Below, piece by piece: positions 25,183 through 45,181 of a DNA stretch of 64,000 nucleotides. The stretch is from assembly GCA_014913405.1 (NCBI GenBank), contig GCA_014913405.1_3931.1; one strand, given 5' to 3'. The notes beneath the pieces were generated by a model. The model worked only from the letters and a program-made list of their open reading frames with translations, was not told where the DNA came from and did no database searches. Within the stretch, counting starts at the first letter, position 1. Each line of letters starts with the position of its first letter. The position numbers and the translations under genes are program-made. Origin of the DNA: a phage.

Positions 25183-25257
25183 GGGAGATTGACGGTAATT
25201 GGTAAACCTACCATCCTTAGAAGTTGGTGTTTGAGGGTTCGAATCCCTTGTCTCCTA
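25183..25257 (+). tRNA. tRNA with TAG anticodon (Leu-type) but short variable loop
   Basis: Manual fold, 75 nt. Confidence 0.45.
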
Positions 25258-25267
25258 CCAAATTAAT

Positions 25268-25340
25268 GCAGGTGTAGCAAAATGGTTATGCGGCTGACTC
25301 TTAATCAGTAAGACGATGGGTTCAATTCCCTCCACCTGTA
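25268..25340 (+). tRNA. tRNA-Lys(CTT)
   Basis: Manual fold; paralogous to Lys(TTT). Confidence 0.5.
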
Positions 25341-25349
25341 CCAAACATT

Positions 25350-25422
25350 GGGGATGTAGTTTACATGGTTAAAACATAAGTTTTGCAAACTTAAGTACAG
25401 GGTTCAATTCCCTGCTTCTCCA
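25350..25422 (+). tRNA. tRNA-Ala(TGC)
   Basis: Manual fold; G3-U70 identity pair present. Confidence 0.7.
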
Positions 25423-25431
25423 CCAATTAGT

Positions 25432-25503
25432 GCATCCATAGTTTAAACGGGAAAATTACAGTCTTCCAAACTGAGGTTGAGGGTTCGATTCCCTCTGGAT
25501 GCT
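25432..25503 (+). tRNA. tRNA-Gly(TCC)
   Basis: Manual cloverleaf. Confidence 0.65.
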
Positions 25504-25512
25504 CCAAACAAT

Positions 25513-25586
25513 GCTGCTTTCGTATAATTGGCTATTACACATCCCTTGTAAGGATGGAAATGCAGGTTCGAGTCCTGTGAGCAGCA
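25513..25586 (+). tRNA. tRNA-Thr(TGT)
   Basis: Manual cloverleaf, perfect anticodon stem. Confidence 0.7.
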
Positions 25587-25591
25587 CCAAT

Positions 25592-25681
25592 TCAGAGGTC
25601 AAGTGAAAGACCGCTTTGAGTCAACTGAAGACCGTAACAAATACCACGGAGTTGAGTTAGCGGCACAACTTCAGACCTCTT
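25592..25681 (+). ncRNA. Structured inter-tRNA element E5 (related to E1-E4)
   Basis: CAGAGGTC ... GACCTCT closing stem; internal CTGAAGACCGTAACAAATAC. Confidence 0.35.
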
Positions 25682-25685
25682 TCAT

Positions 25686-25757
25686 ACTCGCTTAGTTTAT
25701 ATGGTAAAACATCACCCTTACAAGATGAAGAAAAAGGTTCAAGTCCTTTAGTGAGTA
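25686..25757 (+). tRNA. tRNA-Val(TAC)
   Basis: Manual cloverleaf. Confidence 0.6.
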
Positions 25758-25761
25758 CCAT

Positions 25762-25836
25762 GTTCCAGTATCCCAATTGGCAGAGGATGCAAGCTCAAAC
25801 CTTGTATTAGTGACGGTTCGAATCCGTCTTGGAACA
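25762..25836 (+). tRNA. tRNA with CAA anticodon (Leu-type) but short variable loop
   Basis: Manual fold, 75 nt; Leu-like D-loop AATTGGCAGAG. Confidence 0.45.
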
Positions 25837-25844
25837 CCAATTTT

Positions 25845-25917
25845 GCAGGATTAGTTCAAATGGAAAGAGCAACAGTCTACGAAGCTGTTAATAGGGGTTC
25901 GAATCCCTTATCCTGCG
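25845..25917 (+). tRNA. tRNA-Arg(ACG)
   Basis: Manual cloverleaf, perfect acceptor. Confidence 0.7.
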
Positions 25918-25937
25918 CCAGATAAAAAGGTGATACT

Positions 25938-26180
25938 ATGCAAACATTAACAGTAGTTGAACATGAAAACTGTGAGAGTATTGAGTTTGTCAGGGTCATT
26001 GGTGTTGAACACCACATTTTCTTAAAAGTGGGATACTTATGTGACCCCGCTAGAGTAGAAAGATTTATACGTGATTGTTTTGGTGGTAGACATCTGAAGA
26101 GTGTTATTTTTGAGACAGTTTTACCAGAAGGTTTAGAAACGAATAATAACATTTACCTCCTTACGAGGATTAGACAATGA
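25938..26180 (+). CDS. Hypothetical protein embedded in tRNA array
   Basis: ORF with AAGGTGA SD. Confidence 0.5.
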   Translation: MQTLTVVEHENCESIEFVRVIGVEHHIFLKVGYLCDPARVERFIRDCFGGRHLKSVIFETVLPEGLETNNNIYLLTRIRQ

Positions 26181-26734
26181 GATACTTAAAGTATGCTTCA
26201 TGGATTTTCTTAGCTTTGTTAGAGCCATTTGCAGCAATCTTAGCAGTTATCTTAGCACCTTTTGTAGTTCCATTCTACAGTGAGAAGAAAGGACACTTAC
26301 CTTTCGGGTTCAGATGGATGGAGACATATGACAACCCAATTGATGGTGATGAAGGTCACGTTAAAAGATGGGCTAATATTAGATGGATTGGTAAACTAGG
26401 TGTCTACATGCAAAGAGTCGGATGGCTCTGGAGAAACAAAGCTTATAACTTCTCTTACCATGTATTAGGAAGAGATGTAAGAGATGTTACTAAGTGGAAA
26501 GGTAATATCAACGTAAGTTCTAACCCTGAAGATAATCAGACTGGTTATCTCCTAATGTGGAACAGTAATGCTTGGGGATTATTCGCTTTTATCCCATCAA
26601 TTAAAGTCTTCGGTAAACAGTTTTACTGGAGAATTTATGTTGGATGGAAACTTAAAAGTGTTGTCCCAGAAGAAAGAGCATTCTCAAGGGAAAGAGTTAT
26701 GTTGGCATTCTTTATTCATCCACTGAGAAAGTAA
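26177..26734 (+). CDS. Membrane protein (N-terminal TM helix, Trp-rich), embedded in tRNA array
   Basis: ORF coupled by ATGA overlap. Confidence 0.5.
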   Translation: MRYLKYASWIFLALLEPFAAILAVILAPFVVPFYSEKKGHLPFGFRWMETYDNPIDGDEGHVKRWANIRWIGKLGVYMQRVGWLWRNKAYNFSYHVLGRDVRDVTKWKGNINVSSNPEDNQTGYLLMWNSNAWGLFAFIPSIKVFGKQFYWRIYVGWKLKSVVPEERAFSRERVMLAFFIHPLRK

Positions 26735-26742
26735 AGATTTAA

Positions 26743-26815
26743 AGGGGATTAGTTTACAAGGTTAAAACCTCGGTCTTTGAAATCGAAGAAGTTGGTTCAA
26801 TTCCAACATCCCCCG
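26743..26815 (+). tRNA. tRNA-Gln(TTG)
   Basis: Manual fold; 1-72 mismatch. Confidence 0.6.
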
Positions 26816-26820
26816 CCAAT

Positions 26821-26896
26821 GCTCCATTACTCCAATTGGCAGAGAGGCCAGACTTAAAATCTGTGTTATGTATCGGTTCGAATCCGATATGGAGTA
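26821..26896 (+). tRNA. tRNA with TAA anticodon (Leu-type), 7-nt variable loop
   Basis: Manual fold, 76 nt. Confidence 0.45.
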
Positions 26897-26904
26897 CCAA
26901 ATTT

Positions 26905-26977
26905 AGCGGTATAGCATAACTGGCAATGCAGCAGTCTCTGAAGCTGTCCTATTAAGGTTCAAATCCTTATGCCGCTG
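26905..26977 (+). tRNA. tRNA-Gln(CTG)
   Basis: Manual cloverleaf. Confidence 0.6.
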
Positions 26978-27011
26978 CCACTTCTAAGGATTCTTACGAG
27001 AGTCCTTAAAT

Positions 27012-27085
27012 GTGGCCTTATCATAAATGGTAATGACCCATGCTGTGAACATGGTCTATACGGGTTCAAATCCCGTAGGTCACCC
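27012..27085 (+). tRNA. tRNA-His(GTG)
   Basis: Manual cloverleaf; discriminator C. Confidence 0.65.
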
Positions 27086-27092
27086 CAATTTA

Positions 27093-27167
27093 TAGTCCAA
27101 GTAGCTTATATGGTTAAAGCGCGTGTCTGAAAAACATGAGAAGAGGGTTCAAATCCCACTGGACTAC
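27093..27167 (+). tRNA. tRNA-Phe(GAA), atypical acceptor/D junction
   Basis: Manual fold. Confidence 0.5.
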
Positions 27168-27185
27168 CAATTTCAAAGGTGCTTA

Positions 27186-27920
27186 ATGAAAGAGATGACA
27201 GAACAAGGTAAGGAGATTTTCAATCTCTTAAAAACCGGTAAAGGGTTTTCTAACCCCCTTATTACTGGTGCAGCAGTTCTCGGTGGAACCGTAGCTGCCT
27301 CTACATCACTTGTAAGCTCTATTAGCTCTGTATCAGACCCTACAGTAAAGGATAAGCTTGTTGCTGCTGGACTTACAACAGTTCTGCTTAACAGCTTTAC
27401 CACGAGTCTGACAAGCACTACATCAACTACCAAAACACTAACAGATTACGGTCAAAAGTCCATTGATGAGTTTTCATCACGTATGCAGGTAGCAAAAGGT
27501 TACTCTAATGTTATGGGTGCAGCAGGTGAACAAGTTGGCTGTACACCATTTAGTGGTATTATGGGTGTTGCTACAGAGTATGGTCAAAAAACTATTGATA
27601 CGATTAACAGTGTACTAGATAGTGTTAATGGTGTGTTAAGTGACTTACAAGATGCTATTGACAAAGGTCTTGATACTATTTCTGATTTAGCTGAGCAAGC
27701 TGTTAGTAAGATTAATGAAGGTATTTCAAAAATTACAGCTTATGCAGATGAAGTTGTGCAGATGATTGAAGAAGAAGCTGCTCTTATTGCAGAGTACCTT
27801 AAAACGAATATCAATGGGTTCTTAGCAGGTATCTTACCAGACTGGTTTGATGATGCTTGTAAAACTGGTGTAATTGACACTATTGCAACACCAGAAATGA
27901 AGAACGCATTACAGAAATAA
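27186..27920 (+). CDS. Hypothetical protein embedded in tRNA array (start moved from track 27123, which lies inside tRNA-Phe)
   Basis: In-frame ATG at 27186 with AAAGGTG SD. Confidence 0.5.
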   Translation: MKEMTEQGKEIFNLLKTGKGFSNPLITGAAVLGGTVAASTSLVSSISSVSDPTVKDKLVAAGLTTVLLNSFTTSLTSTTSTTKTLTDYGQKSIDEFSSRMQVAKGYSNVMGAAGEQVGCTPFSGIMGVATEYGQKTIDTINSVLDSVNGVLSDLQDAIDKGLDTISDLAEQAVSKINEGISKITAYADEVVQMIEEEAALIAEYLKTNINGFLAGILPDWFDDACKTGVIDTIATPEMKNALQK

Positions 27921-27922
27921 AT

Positions 27923-28012
27923 GGAAGATTAACCCTAAAAGGTAAGGGAGCAGTTTGCTAAACTGCCAGTAGCTGAGAAATCGGTGTACCAGTTCAAGTC
28001 TGGTATCTTCCT
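27923..28012 (+). tRNA. tRNA-Ser(GCT), class II
   Basis: Manual fold, 90 nt, perfect acceptor and anticodon stems. Confidence 0.7.
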
Positions 28013-28019
28013 CCAATTT

Positions 28020-28092
28020 GAATCCGTGACAGAAACGGCTATGTGCCTGTCTGCAAAACAGGTTTATAAGGGTTCGAGTCCCTTCGGATTCT
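28020..28092 (+). tRNA. tRNA-Cys(GCA)
   Basis: Manual cloverleaf, standard 73 nt. Confidence 0.7.
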
Positions 28093-28136
28093 CCAAGTTA
28101 TTTTACTCTCTCTCAATTAAAATAATAATAATGCCC

Positions 28137-37268: not shown

Positions 37269-38621
37269 ATGTGGAATCCAATTGTTAATGTAGATATTAC
37301 ATTGAACACCGCAGGAACTACAAGAGAAGGTTTTGGGCTACCACTATTTTTAGCTTCAACAGATAACTTTGAAGAAAGAGTCCGTGGTTACACTTCCTTA
37401 ACTGAAGTTGCTGAAGATTTCGATGAAAACTCTGCTGCATATAAGGCTGCTAAACAACTTTGGAGTCAGACTCCTAAAGTAACTCAGCTTTATATTGGTA
37501 GACGTGCTATGCAGTACACTGTATCAATTCCTGATGAGGTTACTGAGAGCACCGACTATTCTTTAACTGTAGCTGTGAGCGGTGGAGTTTCTCAGCCATT
37601 CCAGTACACTTCACAGTCAGAAGATACTGCTGAGAAGGTGCTACAGCAGCTTAAAACTCAGATTGAAGCAGAGCCTTCTGTAAAAGACCTTGTTACCGTC
37701 AATGTAACTGGTGCTGGTGGTTCAGCAACAATGGTAATCACCAAAGCGGGTGACAATGACTTCGTGAAGGTTACCACTACAGCACAAACAGTGTCAATTG
37801 CAAGTACAACTGCTGACACAGCATCGACTGCTCTGGCAGCTATTGAGGCTTATTCAACTGACTGGTATTTCATTGCAGCAGAAGACAGAACTCAACAGTT
37901 TGTCTTAGCAATGGCTTCTGAGATTCAAGCTCGTAAGAAGATTTTCTTTACAGCTAACTCTGATGTAACAGCCCTACAAGGTACAGAATTATCCAGTGCA
38001 AATGATGTTCCAGCACAACTTGCTAAGAATAAGTACACTCGTACAGTTTGCTTGTGGCATCACACAGCAGCAGAAGATTATCCAGAAATGGCATACATTG
38101 CTTATGGTGCTCCTTATGATGCAGGTTCAATTGCTTGGGGTAACGCACAGTTAACTGGTGTAGCTGCTTCTCTACAGCCATCTAATCAGAGACCTCTGAC
38201 AAGTATTCAGAAGTCAGCTTTAGATGCACGTCACTGTAACTTTATTGACCTTGATGGTGGTGTTCCAGTGGTTCGTAGAGGGATTACTTCTGGTGGGGAA
38301 TGGATTGATATCATCCGTGGTGTTGACTGGTTAGAATCAGACCTGAAAACTTCTCTGAGAGACTTGCTAATTAACCAGAAGGGTGGTAAGATTACTTATG
38401 ATGATACTGGTATTACCCGTATTCGTCAAGTCATTGAAACCTCTCTGCAAAGAGCAGTCAACAGAAACTTCCTGTCATCTTACACAGTTAATGTTCCTAA
38501 AGCCTCTCAAGTTGCTTTGGCAGACAAGAAAGCTCGTATCCTGAAAGACGTTACCTTCTCAGGTATCTTAGCAGGGGCTATCTTGGATGTTGACTTGAAA
38601 GGTACAGTGGCTTACGAATAA
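37269..38621 (+). CDS. Tail sheath-like major tail protein
   Basis: 450 aa followed by 148-aa tube candidate and strong terminator. Confidence 0.5.
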   Translation: MWNPIVNVDITLNTAGTTREGFGLPLFLASTDNFEERVRGYTSLTEVAEDFDENSAAYKAAKQLWSQTPKVTQLYIGRRAMQYTVSIPDEVTESTDYSLTVAVSGGVSQPFQYTSQSEDTAEKVLQQLKTQIEAEPSVKDLVTVNVTGAGGSATMVITKAGDNDFVKVTTTAQTVSIASTTADTASTALAAIEAYSTDWYFIAAEDRTQQFVLAMASEIQARKKIFFTANSDVTALQGTELSSANDVPAQLAKNKYTRTVCLWHHTAAEDYPEMAYIAYGAPYDAGSIAWGNAQLTGVAASLQPSNQRPLTSIQKSALDARHCNFIDLDGGVPVVRRGITSGGEWIDIIRGVDWLESDLKTSLRDLLINQKGGKITYDDTGITRIRQVIETSLQRAVNRNFLSSYTVNVPKASQVALADKKARILKDVTFSGILAGAILDVDLKGTVAYE

Positions 38622-38636
38622 TAGAGGTAAATTGGA

Positions 38637-39083
38637 ATGGCTATGTATCAGCAATATTCCCCTAAAGACGTTGTGTGTAGCTGGAATGGTATTGCCATTG
38701 AAGGCTTTGCCCCAGACTCATTCTTACGTCTACAGAGAACATCACCACTTGTGACACCAGTTGTAGGTGCAGGTGGTCAAGTTGCTCTGACAAGAAATGC
38801 AGACAAGACAGGTACTATTGAGATTGAGTTAATGCAGACTTCTCTCTCTAACCAGATGCTTTCTGCAATTCAAGCTAAACAAGACAATATGGAACTTGAA
38901 GAAGATATCTCTTCTAACTTCGTAATCTACGACCCATCAGGCTCTGTTCTGGCAACTGGTATTAATGCTTGGTTGCAGGAATTACCACAGATTGAACTTG
39001 GTCGTGACCAGAACTCTAAGACTTGGATTTTTGGTTGTGAGAAGCTAGACTACACTTCTACAATTCCAGCGTCAAGTGTTTAA
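38637..39083 (+). CDS. Tail tube protein candidate
   Basis: 148 aa, position. Confidence 0.5.
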   Translation: MAMYQQYSPKDVVCSWNGIAIEGFAPDSFLRLQRTSPLVTPVVGAGGQVALTRNADKTGTIEIELMQTSLSNQMLSAIQAKQDNMELEEDISSNFVIYDPSGSVLATGINAWLQELPQIELGRDQNSKTWIFGCEKLDYTSTIPASSV

Positions 39084-39087
39084 TAAA

Positions 39088-39128
39088 TCCTATAAGGGGG
39101 AGACTTTAAAAGGTCTTCCCCTTTTTTG
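39088..39128 (+). terminator. Rho-independent terminator after tube gene
   Basis: GGGGAGAC...GTCTTCCCC hairpin followed by T6. Confidence 0.6.
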
Positions 39129-39156
39129 TTTCTTTTAAAAATATTAAGGAATCACA

Positions 39157-39555
39157 ATGAAAACAGAATCTAGAGTAATTAATGGTAAGAAAGTAAATAT
39201 CGTTCTGCTTGGGGCAAGAGATGGTATTAAGATGTCTATGAAGTTGGGTAAAATTGTTGTTCCAACCTTTGCACAGATGCTGTCAAGTCTGACTGATAAA
39301 GACAAGAAAGAAGCTCCAATGGTTCCATTTAAAGAACTTGTTGAAGCTTGTTTTGACAGAATTGAAGAAATTAACCTTGAAGAAATGGCTACCTTACTAT
39401 TTCAAGGGGCGACTGTTGATGACTTCCCACTAAATATTGATACCTACTTCCAAGCAAACTACGGTGAATTTATTGATTACTTAGCATTTGCGCTGGAGGC
39501 AAACTTCGGAAGTTTTTTCGAAGCAAGCATTTTCAAAAGCCTAACTTCTCAGTAA
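39157..39555 (+). CDS. Tail assembly chaperone (gpG-like)
   Basis: Position before tape measure; slippery site near 3' end. Confidence 0.6.
   Translation: MKTESRVINGKKVNIVLLGARDGIKMSMKLGKIVVPTFAQMLSSLTDKDKKEAPMVPFKELVEACFDRIEEINLEEMATLLFQGATVDDFPLNIDTYFQANYGEFIDYLAFALEANFGSFFEASIFKSLTSQ
39512..39518 (+). other. Programmed -1 ribosomal frameshift heptamer T-TTT-TTC
   Basis: XXXYYYZ in zero frame; -1 frame open into 39558-39797 ORF. Confidence 0.6.
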
Positions 39556-39557
39556 AC

Positions 39558-39796
39558 ATGGGTAACACTCTACAGACACCACTGACTGATGCTGCTGTAG
39601 AGGCAACCTATGAAGAAGCAGACGAGATGAAATTTGTGCTTGCTATTTATGGTATGGAAGGGTGTAAAGAAACACTTGACCAACTCTTTGCTATGACATT
39701 CTCTGATTTATTATCATTGAGACAATTTCTTGAGATTCAGAGGTCGTATAAAGAGGAAATTGCTTACAACGAACTTAGAAGAGCAGGAAAAATGTA

Positions 39797-39797
<1 letters not shown>
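39558..39797 (+). CDS. Tail assembly chaperone extension (gpT-like, expressed as G-T fusion)
   Basis: ORF in -1 frame relative to upstream chaperone. Confidence 0.55.

Positions 39798-45181
<5,384 letters not shown>

What the first reader, a model, noticed from the sequence alone, without database searches (positions are those of the whole stretch)
39505..39560. Conserved -1 programmed frameshift site joining the two tail assembly chaperone ORFs
The heptamer T-TTT-TTC at 39512-39518 lies in the zero frame near the end of the gpG-like ORF. The -1 frame from there is open and runs straight into the 39558-39797 ORF, which would give a G-T fusion. This is the well-known conserved frameshift of tail assembly chaperones upstream of the tape measure gene, and supports the structural annotation.
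Basis: partly seen in the sequence, partly recalled or inferred. Interest (0 to 1): 0.4.

Follow-up and report, generated by a model that had tools for sequence, protein, structure and literature searches.

The report
Known tail-chaperone −1 frameshift site
This is the ordinary programmed −1 ribosomal frameshift that tailed phages use to make a second, longer tail assembly chaperone. It sits in a Felix O1-like phage genome, is conserved across that phage subfamily, and is already annotated in related GenBank records.

Summary
The heptamer T_TTT_TTC is at 39513-39519, not 39512-39518. It lies in the zero frame (AGT TTT TTC) 12 codons before the stop of the 132-aa chaperone ORF (39157-39555; Pfam Phage_TAC_15). 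The −1 frame is open from 39477 to 39797. A slip would give a 213-aa G-T fusion ending one base into the tape measure gene.

The window is a Felixounavirus, 98% identical to phage wV8. The heptamer is invariant and in register in all 32 IMG/VR-derived loci, in phiEa21-4 and in Arno162, down to about 40% protein identity. Third-codon-position identity peaks at 0.94 at the site, against 0.35-0.55 elsewhere. In several relatives the downstream frame has no start codon for 37-56 codons. Here its ATG has no Shine-Dalgarno sequence.

I found no conserved downstream RNA structure. An upstream GGAGG is present in some genera only.

The frameshift is already annotated as a joined CDS in phages Mushroom and Moogle and is mentioned in their genome announcements. 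It is already known and of low interest. No experiment on this phage group was found.

The parts
39157..39555 (+). Tail assembly chaperone ORF (gpG analogue), 132 aa, zero frame
   Evidence: Pfam PF21822 Phage_TAC_15, E 1.2e-19, 71.5 bits against a cutoff of 22. phrog_1613 and phrog_3840, tail assembly chaperone. Annotated as such in wV8. Shine-Dalgarno AAGGA upstream, duplex energy −6.1 kcal/mol.
39513..39519 (+). Slippery heptamer T_TTT_TTC (P-site UUU, A-site UUC, both tRNA-Phe)
   Evidence: In zero-frame register. Invariant in 32 loci plus phiEa21-4 and Arno162. U_UU.U_UU.C falls in the efficient H_HH.U_UU.Y class in E. coli (PMC4066793).
39519..39797 (+). −1 frame extension read after the slip (92 codons plus stop). 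With G codons 1-121 it gives a 213-aa G-T fusion.
   Evidence: Open frame. The fusion matches phrog_4963 over residues 135-213 and phrog_3840 over 1-151. The linker RSKHFQKP, upstream of the ATG, is conserved in relatives.
39558..39797 (+). 'T' ORF as a mechanical ATG-to-stop ORF (79 aa)
   Evidence: No Shine-Dalgarno sequence (duplex energy +0.7). The ATG is ATA in L011 and absent in L030 and L035/L032.
39495..39499 (+). GGAGG, a possible Shine-Dalgarno-like upstream stimulator, 13 nt before the heptamer
   Evidence: Seen directly in the sequence. Present in the Felixounavirus, SUSP1/2, Moogle-group and Arno162 sequences but not in phiEa21-4-type sequences or L030. It lies within the 6-17 nt search window used by Sharma et al.. 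Its function is inferred only.
39531..39534 (+). In-frame U_UUC tetramer, a possible minor second −1 slip site leading into the same frame
   Evidence: Zero-frame codons ATT TTC. U_UU.C is the second most shift-prone tetramer in E. coli. Conserved in all relatives except Arno162.
39797..42025 (+). Tape measure protein gene; its ATG overlaps the T-frame stop (TAATG)
   Evidence: Pfam TMP_3 E 7.8e-17. phrog_4036 E 0.
38637..39083 (+). Tail tube-like structural protein gene upstream
   Evidence: Pfam KPP10_Orf10. phrog_280.
37269..38621 (+). Tail sheath gene
   Evidence: Pfam DUF3383. phrog_205, tail sheath, E 1.5e-125.
39094..39133 (+). Intrinsic terminator-like hairpin plus T-run between the tube gene and the chaperone gene
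   Evidence: 13-bp stem. Annotated as a Rho-independent terminator at the same place in wV8.

Best explanation
A minority of ribosomes translating the chaperone gene (39157-39555) slip back one base on U_UUU_UUC (39513-39519). The two tRNA-Phe re-pair from UUU-UUC to UUU-UUU. Decoding then continues with CGA at 39519 in the −1 frame, down to the TAA at 39795-39797. The result is a 213-aa G-T fusion (…ANFGSFF|RSKHFQKPNFSVNMGNT…) alongside the abundant 132-aa G protein. By analogy with lambda gpG/gpGT, both would bind the tape measure protein encoded immediately downstream. The T part would recruit the tube protein and so set a fixed G:GT ratio for tail assembly. The signal appears to be the heptamer alone, without a conserved downstream structure. 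An upstream GGAGG may assist in this genus. Shown here: the sequence anatomy, the conservation and the family assignment. Inferred: the slip itself, its efficiency and the roles of the proteins.
For: The heptamer is in frame and the −1 frame is open to the tape measure gene start. It is the only one of 58 in-frame heptamers in the window with a long −1 ORF. G belongs to Phage_TAC_15, and the gene order is sheath, tube, G, T, tape measure. The heptamer is invariant in 32 IMG/VR-derived loci, phiEa21-4 and Arno162, at 39-47% G identity in the most distant. blastn finds only a 41-nt island around the site in Erwinia phages, at 92.7% identity. Third-position identity is 0.94 at the site against 0.35-0.55 elsewhere, and the −1 linker peptide upstream of the T ATG is conserved. 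The T frame has no start codon for 37-56 codons in L011, L030, L035 and L032. The window's own T ATG has no Shine-Dalgarno sequence. Joined CDS of matching length are annotated in Mushroom and Moogle, and the frameshift is stated in the genome announcements PMC4319497 and PMC5543628. The U_UU.U_UU.C motif is in an efficient class in E. coli.
Against: I found no protein-level or reporter evidence for this phage group. No conserved stimulatory structure follows the heptamer, so the efficiency cannot be predicted. In this window an ATG lies 2 nt after the G stop, so some free T protein made by termination-reinitiation cannot be excluded. Most database records, wV8 RefSeq included, annotate two separate genes.
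Confidence: 0.9

Rival explanations
1. The downstream ORF is translated on its own from ATG 39558, by termination-reinitiation after the G stop at 39553-39555. This would give a free 79-aa T protein, either instead of or in addition to the fusion.
For: The ATG lies 2 nt after the TAA. Most GenBank records annotate two separate genes. In the Moogle group an ATG with a good Shine-Dalgarno sequence (−7.2 kcal/mol) lies 11 nt after the G stop.
Against: There is no Shine-Dalgarno sequence before 39558 (+0.7 kcal/mol against −6.1 and −5.1 for the neighbouring genes). The ATG is ATA in L011, and there is no start codon for 38-56 codons in L030, L035 and L032, although the T sequence is conserved from its first residues. 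The −1 peptide upstream of the ATG is conserved. The heptamer would have no reason to be invariant at synonymous positions.
Confidence: 0.06
2. The shift occurs during transcription. RNA polymerase stutters on the T6 run and adds one U to a fraction of mRNAs, which are then translated normally into the fusion.
For: A homopolymer run sits at the site. A weak hairpin-plus-T-run (terminator-like) pattern ends exactly at the run, 39493-39509. The one-base insertion product (T7) seen in phage CL1 encodes exactly the fusion.
Against: From general knowledge, six T is shorter than the runs of about 8-9 or more that give appreciable slippage by bacterial RNA polymerase. The run length is fixed at exactly 6, in heptamer register, in all lineages and never longer. 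The motif is a measured ribosomal frameshift heptamer.
Confidence: 0.03
3. The slip takes place mainly at the second in-frame site, the U_UUC tetramer at 39531-39534. The fusion would then read …FFEASIF|QKPNF….
For: The tetramer is in frame, enters the same −1 ORF, and is conserved in all relatives except Arno162. U_UU.C is the second best tetramer in E. coli.
Against: Tetramers peak about 10-fold lower than the best heptamers. Arno162 lacks this tetramer but keeps the heptamer. The −1 residues R-S directly after the heptamer are conserved in Arno162.
Confidence: 0.03

Closest known systems
Phage lambda gpG/gpGT −1 frameshift and the conserved tail assembly chaperone frameshift of dsDNA tailed phages (Levin et al. 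1993; Xu, Hendrix & Duda 2004, as cited in PMC5009743)
   Same: Two overlapping ORFs lie between the major tail (tube) gene and the tape measure gene. An in-frame X_XXY_YYZ heptamer sits close to the 3' end of the first ORF. The second ORF is in the −1 frame. No conserved downstream structure is found.
   Different: The heptamer is U_UUU_UUC rather than lambda's G_GGA_AAG (the lambda sequence is from my own knowledge). The phage has a contractile tail (sheath plus tube). The G family is Phage_TAC_15. The T part has no Pfam family.
Joined 'tape measure chaperone' CDS of the Felix O1-like phages Mushroom (KP143762.1) and Moogle (NC_027293.1)
   Same: This is the same locus in sister genomes (97% and 81% DNA identity). 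The joined CDS spans match a one-base re-read: 641 nt and 638 nt, giving 213 and 212 aa.
   Different: Nothing material. The window's closest relatives, such as wV8, simply annotate two separate genes.
Phage P2 E/E+E' tail chaperone frameshift (Christie et al. 2002; recalled from memory, not checked here)
   Same: A contractile-tailed phage with a U-rich slippery run (recalled as TTTTTTG) near the end of the first chaperone gene, upstream of the tape measure gene.
   Different: The protein families are unrelated as far as was tested here. The last base of the heptamer differs.
E. coli dnaX and IS3-type stimulated −1 frameshift signals
   Same: The heptamer class, and a possible Shine-Dalgarno-like element at a suitable distance upstream (GGAGG, 13 nt).
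   Different: There is no downstream hairpin or pseudoknot at 5-9 nt, and none is conserved. The GGAGG is not conserved across the subfamily.

Membership tests
Tail assembly chaperone G/GT programmed −1 frameshift (Xu-Hendrix-Duda type) | Two ORFs located between the major tail/tube gene and the tape measure gene | tested here: met
   Sheath 37269-38621, tube 38637-39083, G 39157-39555, T 39558-39797, tape measure 39797-42025.
Tail assembly chaperone G/GT programmed −1 frameshift (Xu-Hendrix-Duda type) | The upstream ORF belongs to a tail assembly chaperone family | tested here: met
   PF21822 Phage_TAC_15, 71.5 bits against a cutoff of 22. phrog_1613, E 7.9e-49.
Tail assembly chaperone G/GT programmed −1 frameshift (Xu-Hendrix-Duda type) | The downstream ORF is in the −1 frame and overlaps the 3' end of the upstream ORF with no intervening stop | tested here: met
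   The −1 frame is open over 39477-39797 and the overlap with G is 79 nt.
Tail assembly chaperone G/GT programmed −1 frameshift (Xu-Hendrix-Duda type) | A slippery X_XXY_YYZ sequence in zero-frame register inside the overlap | tested here: met
   T_TTT_TTC at 39513-39519, the only such heptamer in the overlap.
Tail assembly chaperone G/GT programmed −1 frameshift (Xu-Hendrix-Duda type) | The slippery site and frame arrangement are conserved among diverged relatives | tested here: met
   Invariant in 32 loci, phiEa21-4 and Arno162, with 39-47% identity in the most distant. There is a peak of synonymous-site conservation at the site.
Tail assembly chaperone G/GT programmed −1 frameshift (Xu-Hendrix-Duda type) | The downstream ORF lacks its own translation start signals | tested here: inconclusive
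   In the window an ATG exists but has no Shine-Dalgarno sequence. L011, L030, L035 and L032 have no start codon. The Moogle group has an ATG with a Shine-Dalgarno sequence.
Tail assembly chaperone G/GT programmed −1 frameshift (Xu-Hendrix-Duda type) | The fusion protein is actually made at a low fixed ratio; both products are needed for tail assembly and are absent from virions | not testable with these tools
   This needs a reporter assay, mass spectrometry or genetics. I found no such data for Felix O1-like phages.
Structure-stimulated −1 frameshift signals (IS3/dnaX type) | A stable hairpin or pseudoknot starting about 5-9 nt after the heptamer | tested here: not met
   The 61-nt downstream fold is −3.4 kcal/mol, z +1.2. 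RNAalifold finds no consensus pairs within 100 nt across nine representatives. There is no Rfam match.
Structure-stimulated −1 frameshift signals (IS3/dnaX type) | A Shine-Dalgarno-like sequence 6-17 nt upstream of the heptamer | tested here: inconclusive
   GGAGG at 39495-39499, 13 nt upstream. It is kept in four lineages but lost in phiEa21-4-type sequences and L030. Its GAG codon is the minority Glu codon, 41 against 95 GAA.

The most novel reading that the evidence does not exclude
The roughly 30-nt block around and after the heptamer (AAGTTTTTTCGAAGCAAGCATTTTCAAAA) is identical in nearly all relatives examined, including those at about 40% protein identity. Arno162 keeps only its first half. 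The block might be more than dual coding. It could be an unstructured cis element, for example tandem slip sites (heptamer plus U_UUC tetramer) or an mRNA or nascent-peptide signal, that tunes the G:GT ratio without any RNA structure.
Probability: 0.1. Interest if true: 0.4.

Novelty: already known. Interest (0 to 1): 0.1.

Why it matters
It confirms that genes 39157-39797 should be annotated as a chaperone plus a frameshifted fusion, not as two independent genes as in wV8 and most Felixounavirus records. It also anchors the tail module annotation. Beyond correcting annotation it adds nothing new to what is known about recoding or tail assembly.

Tried and rejected
1. Downstream stimulatory structure. 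Single-sequence folds of 61, 101 and 141 nt were run. The 141-nt fold has a long-range stem, 39522-39535 with 39627-39645, at z −2.85. Its 3' arm is absent from the phiEa21-4-type sequences, L030 and Arno162, although the 5' arm is identical in the phiEa21-4-type sequences and L030. RNAalifold gave no consensus structure within 100 nt. Rejected as a conserved element.

2. A palindrome, CTTCGGAA-GTTT-TTTCGAAG (39504-39523), places the heptamer in a hairpin arm. Three one-sided transitions keep wobble pairs, but the phiEa21-4-type sequences and L030 break two pairs. The 5' arm would lie inside the ribosome at the time of the slip. Not supported.

3. Rfam scan of 39050-39900. Only sub-threshold chance hits appeared, and they lie on the upstream terminator.

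4. A search of IMG/VR for the conserved 28-mer, to find further lineages, returned the same 31 contigs.

5. A search for T7 variants found none in IMG/VR and only phage CL1 among 255 GenBank records.

6. A literature search for experimental proof in Felix O1-like phages found only annotation-level statements.

7. The in-frame A_AAA_AAG heptamer in the tape measure gene (40084) has a −1 ORF of only 5 codons and is not conserved. Judged to be chance.

I did not run the large protein-database searches or structure prediction, because the answer did not depend on them.

Full report
**What the window is.** The 4.9 kb around the finding is 96-98.6% identical to many Felix O1-like phages: wV8, the E. 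coli O157 typing phages, FelixO1 itself and others. In all, 298 phage records match. The window is therefore a Felixounavirus genome (subfamily Ounavirinae; taxonomy from the wV8 record).

**The observation.** Reading the sequence and indexing it shows that GTTTTTT occupies 39512-39518 and TTTTTTC occupies 39513-39519.
- The upstream ORF (39157-39555, 132 aa) is read as …GGA AGT TTT TTC GAA…. The heptamer is therefore in exact X_XXY_YYZ register, T_TTT_TTC, 12 codons before the TAA at 39553-39555.
- In the −1 frame the last upstream stop is TGA at 39474. The frame stays open to the TAA at 39795-39797 and passes through the ATG at 39558.
- A −1 slip gives a 213-aa product: 121 codons of G, then RSKHFQKPNFSVN-MGNTLQ….

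**Is it more than chance?** ORFs of at least 100 aa in the window contain 58 in-frame XXXYYYZ heptamers in about 16,400 codons. About 0.09 would be expected in the 26-codon overlap. This is the only heptamer followed by a long −1 ORF, at 92 codons; the next longest are 27, 26 and 22.

**Gene context.**
- 37269-38621 is a tail sheath (DUF3383; phrog_205).
- 38637-39083 is a tube-like structural protein.
- 39157-39555 matches Pfam Phage_TAC_15 at 71.5 bits, against a cutoff of 22.
- 39558-39797 matches phrog_4963, 'tail assembly chaperone'.
- 39797-42025 is the tape measure protein.
- The slip site falls at the very end of the chaperone domain, which covers residues 9-124.
- A strong terminator hairpin (39094-39123) separates the tube gene from this operon.
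- The T-frame stop overlaps the tape measure gene start (TAATG).

**Comparative evidence.** I collected 31 IMG/VR loci encoding relatives of G, plus wV8, phiEa21-4 (Kolesnikvirus) and Pectobacterium phage Arno162.
- In every one, TTTTTTC is present in the same register, and the −1 frame is open for 92-94 codons to just before the tape measure gene start. This holds even where G is only 39-47% identical.
- With blastn, the only part of the G-T region still detectable in the Erwinia phages is a 41-nt island, window 39502-39542, at 92.7% identity.
- In a codon alignment of eight representatives, third-position identity reaches 0.94 in the nine codons around the site. Elsewhere it is 0.35-0.55.
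- The −1 peptide between the heptamer and the 'T' ATG (RSKHFQKP…) is conserved, and partly so in Arno162 (RSSYPVKP), where the DNA differs. That stretch can only be translated after a frameshift.
- The T frame has no ATG, GTG or TTG for 37 codons in L011, where the ATG is ATA. It has none for 38 codons in L030 and none for 56 codons in the phiEa21-4 type.
- In the window, the ATG at 39558 has no Shine-Dalgarno pairing: +0.7 kcal/mol, against −6.1 for G and −5.1 for the tape measure gene.

**Mechanism.** The best reading is a simple tandem slip of two tRNA-Phe on U_UUU_UUC.
- Sharma et al. measured all heptamers in E. coli. They place H_HH.U_UU.Y among the most efficient classes and list U_UU.U_UU.C among motifs above 0.1% without any stimulator (PMC4066793).
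- I found no stimulatory structure. The 61 nt after the site fold no better than shuffles (z +1.2). A hairpin at 39557-39612 starts 37 nt away.
- A long-range stem in the 141-nt fold (z −2.85) has no counterpart in the phiEa21-4-type sequences, L030 or Arno162. RNAalifold finds nothing conserved within 100 nt. Rfam has no match.
- A GGAGG lies 13 nt upstream (39495-39499), within the range where Shine-Dalgarno-like sequences are searched for as stimulators. It is kept in four lineages but not in phiEa21-4-type sequences or L030. It is at most a genus-level modulator.
- A second in-frame shift-prone tetramer, U_UUC at 39531-39534, leads into the same frame and could contribute a little.
- The conserved 30-nt block is adequately explained by both reading frames being under protein-level selection.

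**Rival explanations.**
- Independent translation of T by reinitiation is possible in this window. It cannot be the conserved mode, given the relatives that lack start codons.
- Transcriptional slippage on only six T is unlikely. The run is never longer in any relative.

**Prior knowledge.** The GenBank records of Salmonella phage Mushroom and Citrobacter phage Moogle already carry a two-piece joined 'tape measure chaperone' CDS at this locus. Their spans fit a one-base re-read. The Moogle and Mijalis genome announcements state the frameshift and cite Xu, Hendrix & Duda 2004. The general phenomenon is textbook (PMC5009743). Most other Felixounavirus records, including RefSeq wV8, annotate two separate genes. 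I found no experimental demonstration for this phage group.

**Verdict.** This is an already known, ordinary feature, and its practical value is correct annotation. Interest is low.

Noticed in passing
L033 357-998 (Escherichia phage CL1, OK040806.1 84151-84792); corresponds to window 39513-39518: The CL1 record has seven T instead of six at the slip site. G and T therefore form one in-frame 213-aa ORF with exactly the predicted fusion junction (…GSFFRSKHFQ…). It is the only such record among 255 phage records, and no IMG/VR contig has it. It is probably a homopolymer sequencing error or a rare mutant.
   Followed up: yes
window 22884-28095: A cluster of 26 phage-encoded tRNA genes. It includes tRNA-Phe(GAA) at 27094-27169, which reads both slip codons. 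It also includes tRNA-Arg(ACG) at 25845-25920, which would read CGA, the first −1 codon, and tRNA-Glu(UUC) at 22968-23045, which reads GAA, the competing zero-frame codon. Whether these tune the frameshift is unknown.
   Followed up: no
window 40084-40090: An in-frame A_AAA_AAG, the most slippery E. coli heptamer, lies inside the tape measure gene. The −1 frame stops after 5 codons. Among the seven relatives checked the heptamer appears only in wV8. Probably chance.
   Followed up: partly
window 39504-39523: A near-perfect palindrome, CTTCGGAA-GTTT-TTTCGAAG, puts the 3' half of the heptamer in the arm of an 8-bp hairpin. A second weak hairpin (39493-39509) followed by the T-run scores as terminator-like. 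Two pairs of the palindrome are broken in the phiEa21-4-type sequences and L030, and there is no covariation support.
   Followed up: partly
window 39522-39535 with 39627-39645: Predicted long-range pairing, AGCAAGCAUUUUCA with UGAAA…GUGCUUGCU, of 14 bp with a bulge. The 141-nt fold has z −2.85. The 3' arm is present only in the Felixounavirus, SUSP1/2 and Moogle-group sequences.
   Followed up: partly
L011 (IMGVR_UViG_3300045988_004167), position equivalent to window 39558-39560: A Felixounavirus contig otherwise about 99% identical has ATA in place of the 'T' ATG. This is a natural test showing that the ATG is dispensable.
   Followed up: partly
window 39094-39133: A strong intrinsic terminator (13-bp stem plus T-run) lies between the tube gene and the chaperone-tape measure operon. 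It would lower expression of the chaperones and tape measure protein relative to sheath and tube.
   Followed up: partly
L035 1570-1805 (phiEa21-4, EU710883.1 37654-37889): The T-equivalent region of phiEa21-4 is left unannotated in the GenBank record, as a gap between genes 59 and 60. It has no start codon of its own, so the frameshifted product is missing from that annotation.
   Followed up: partly
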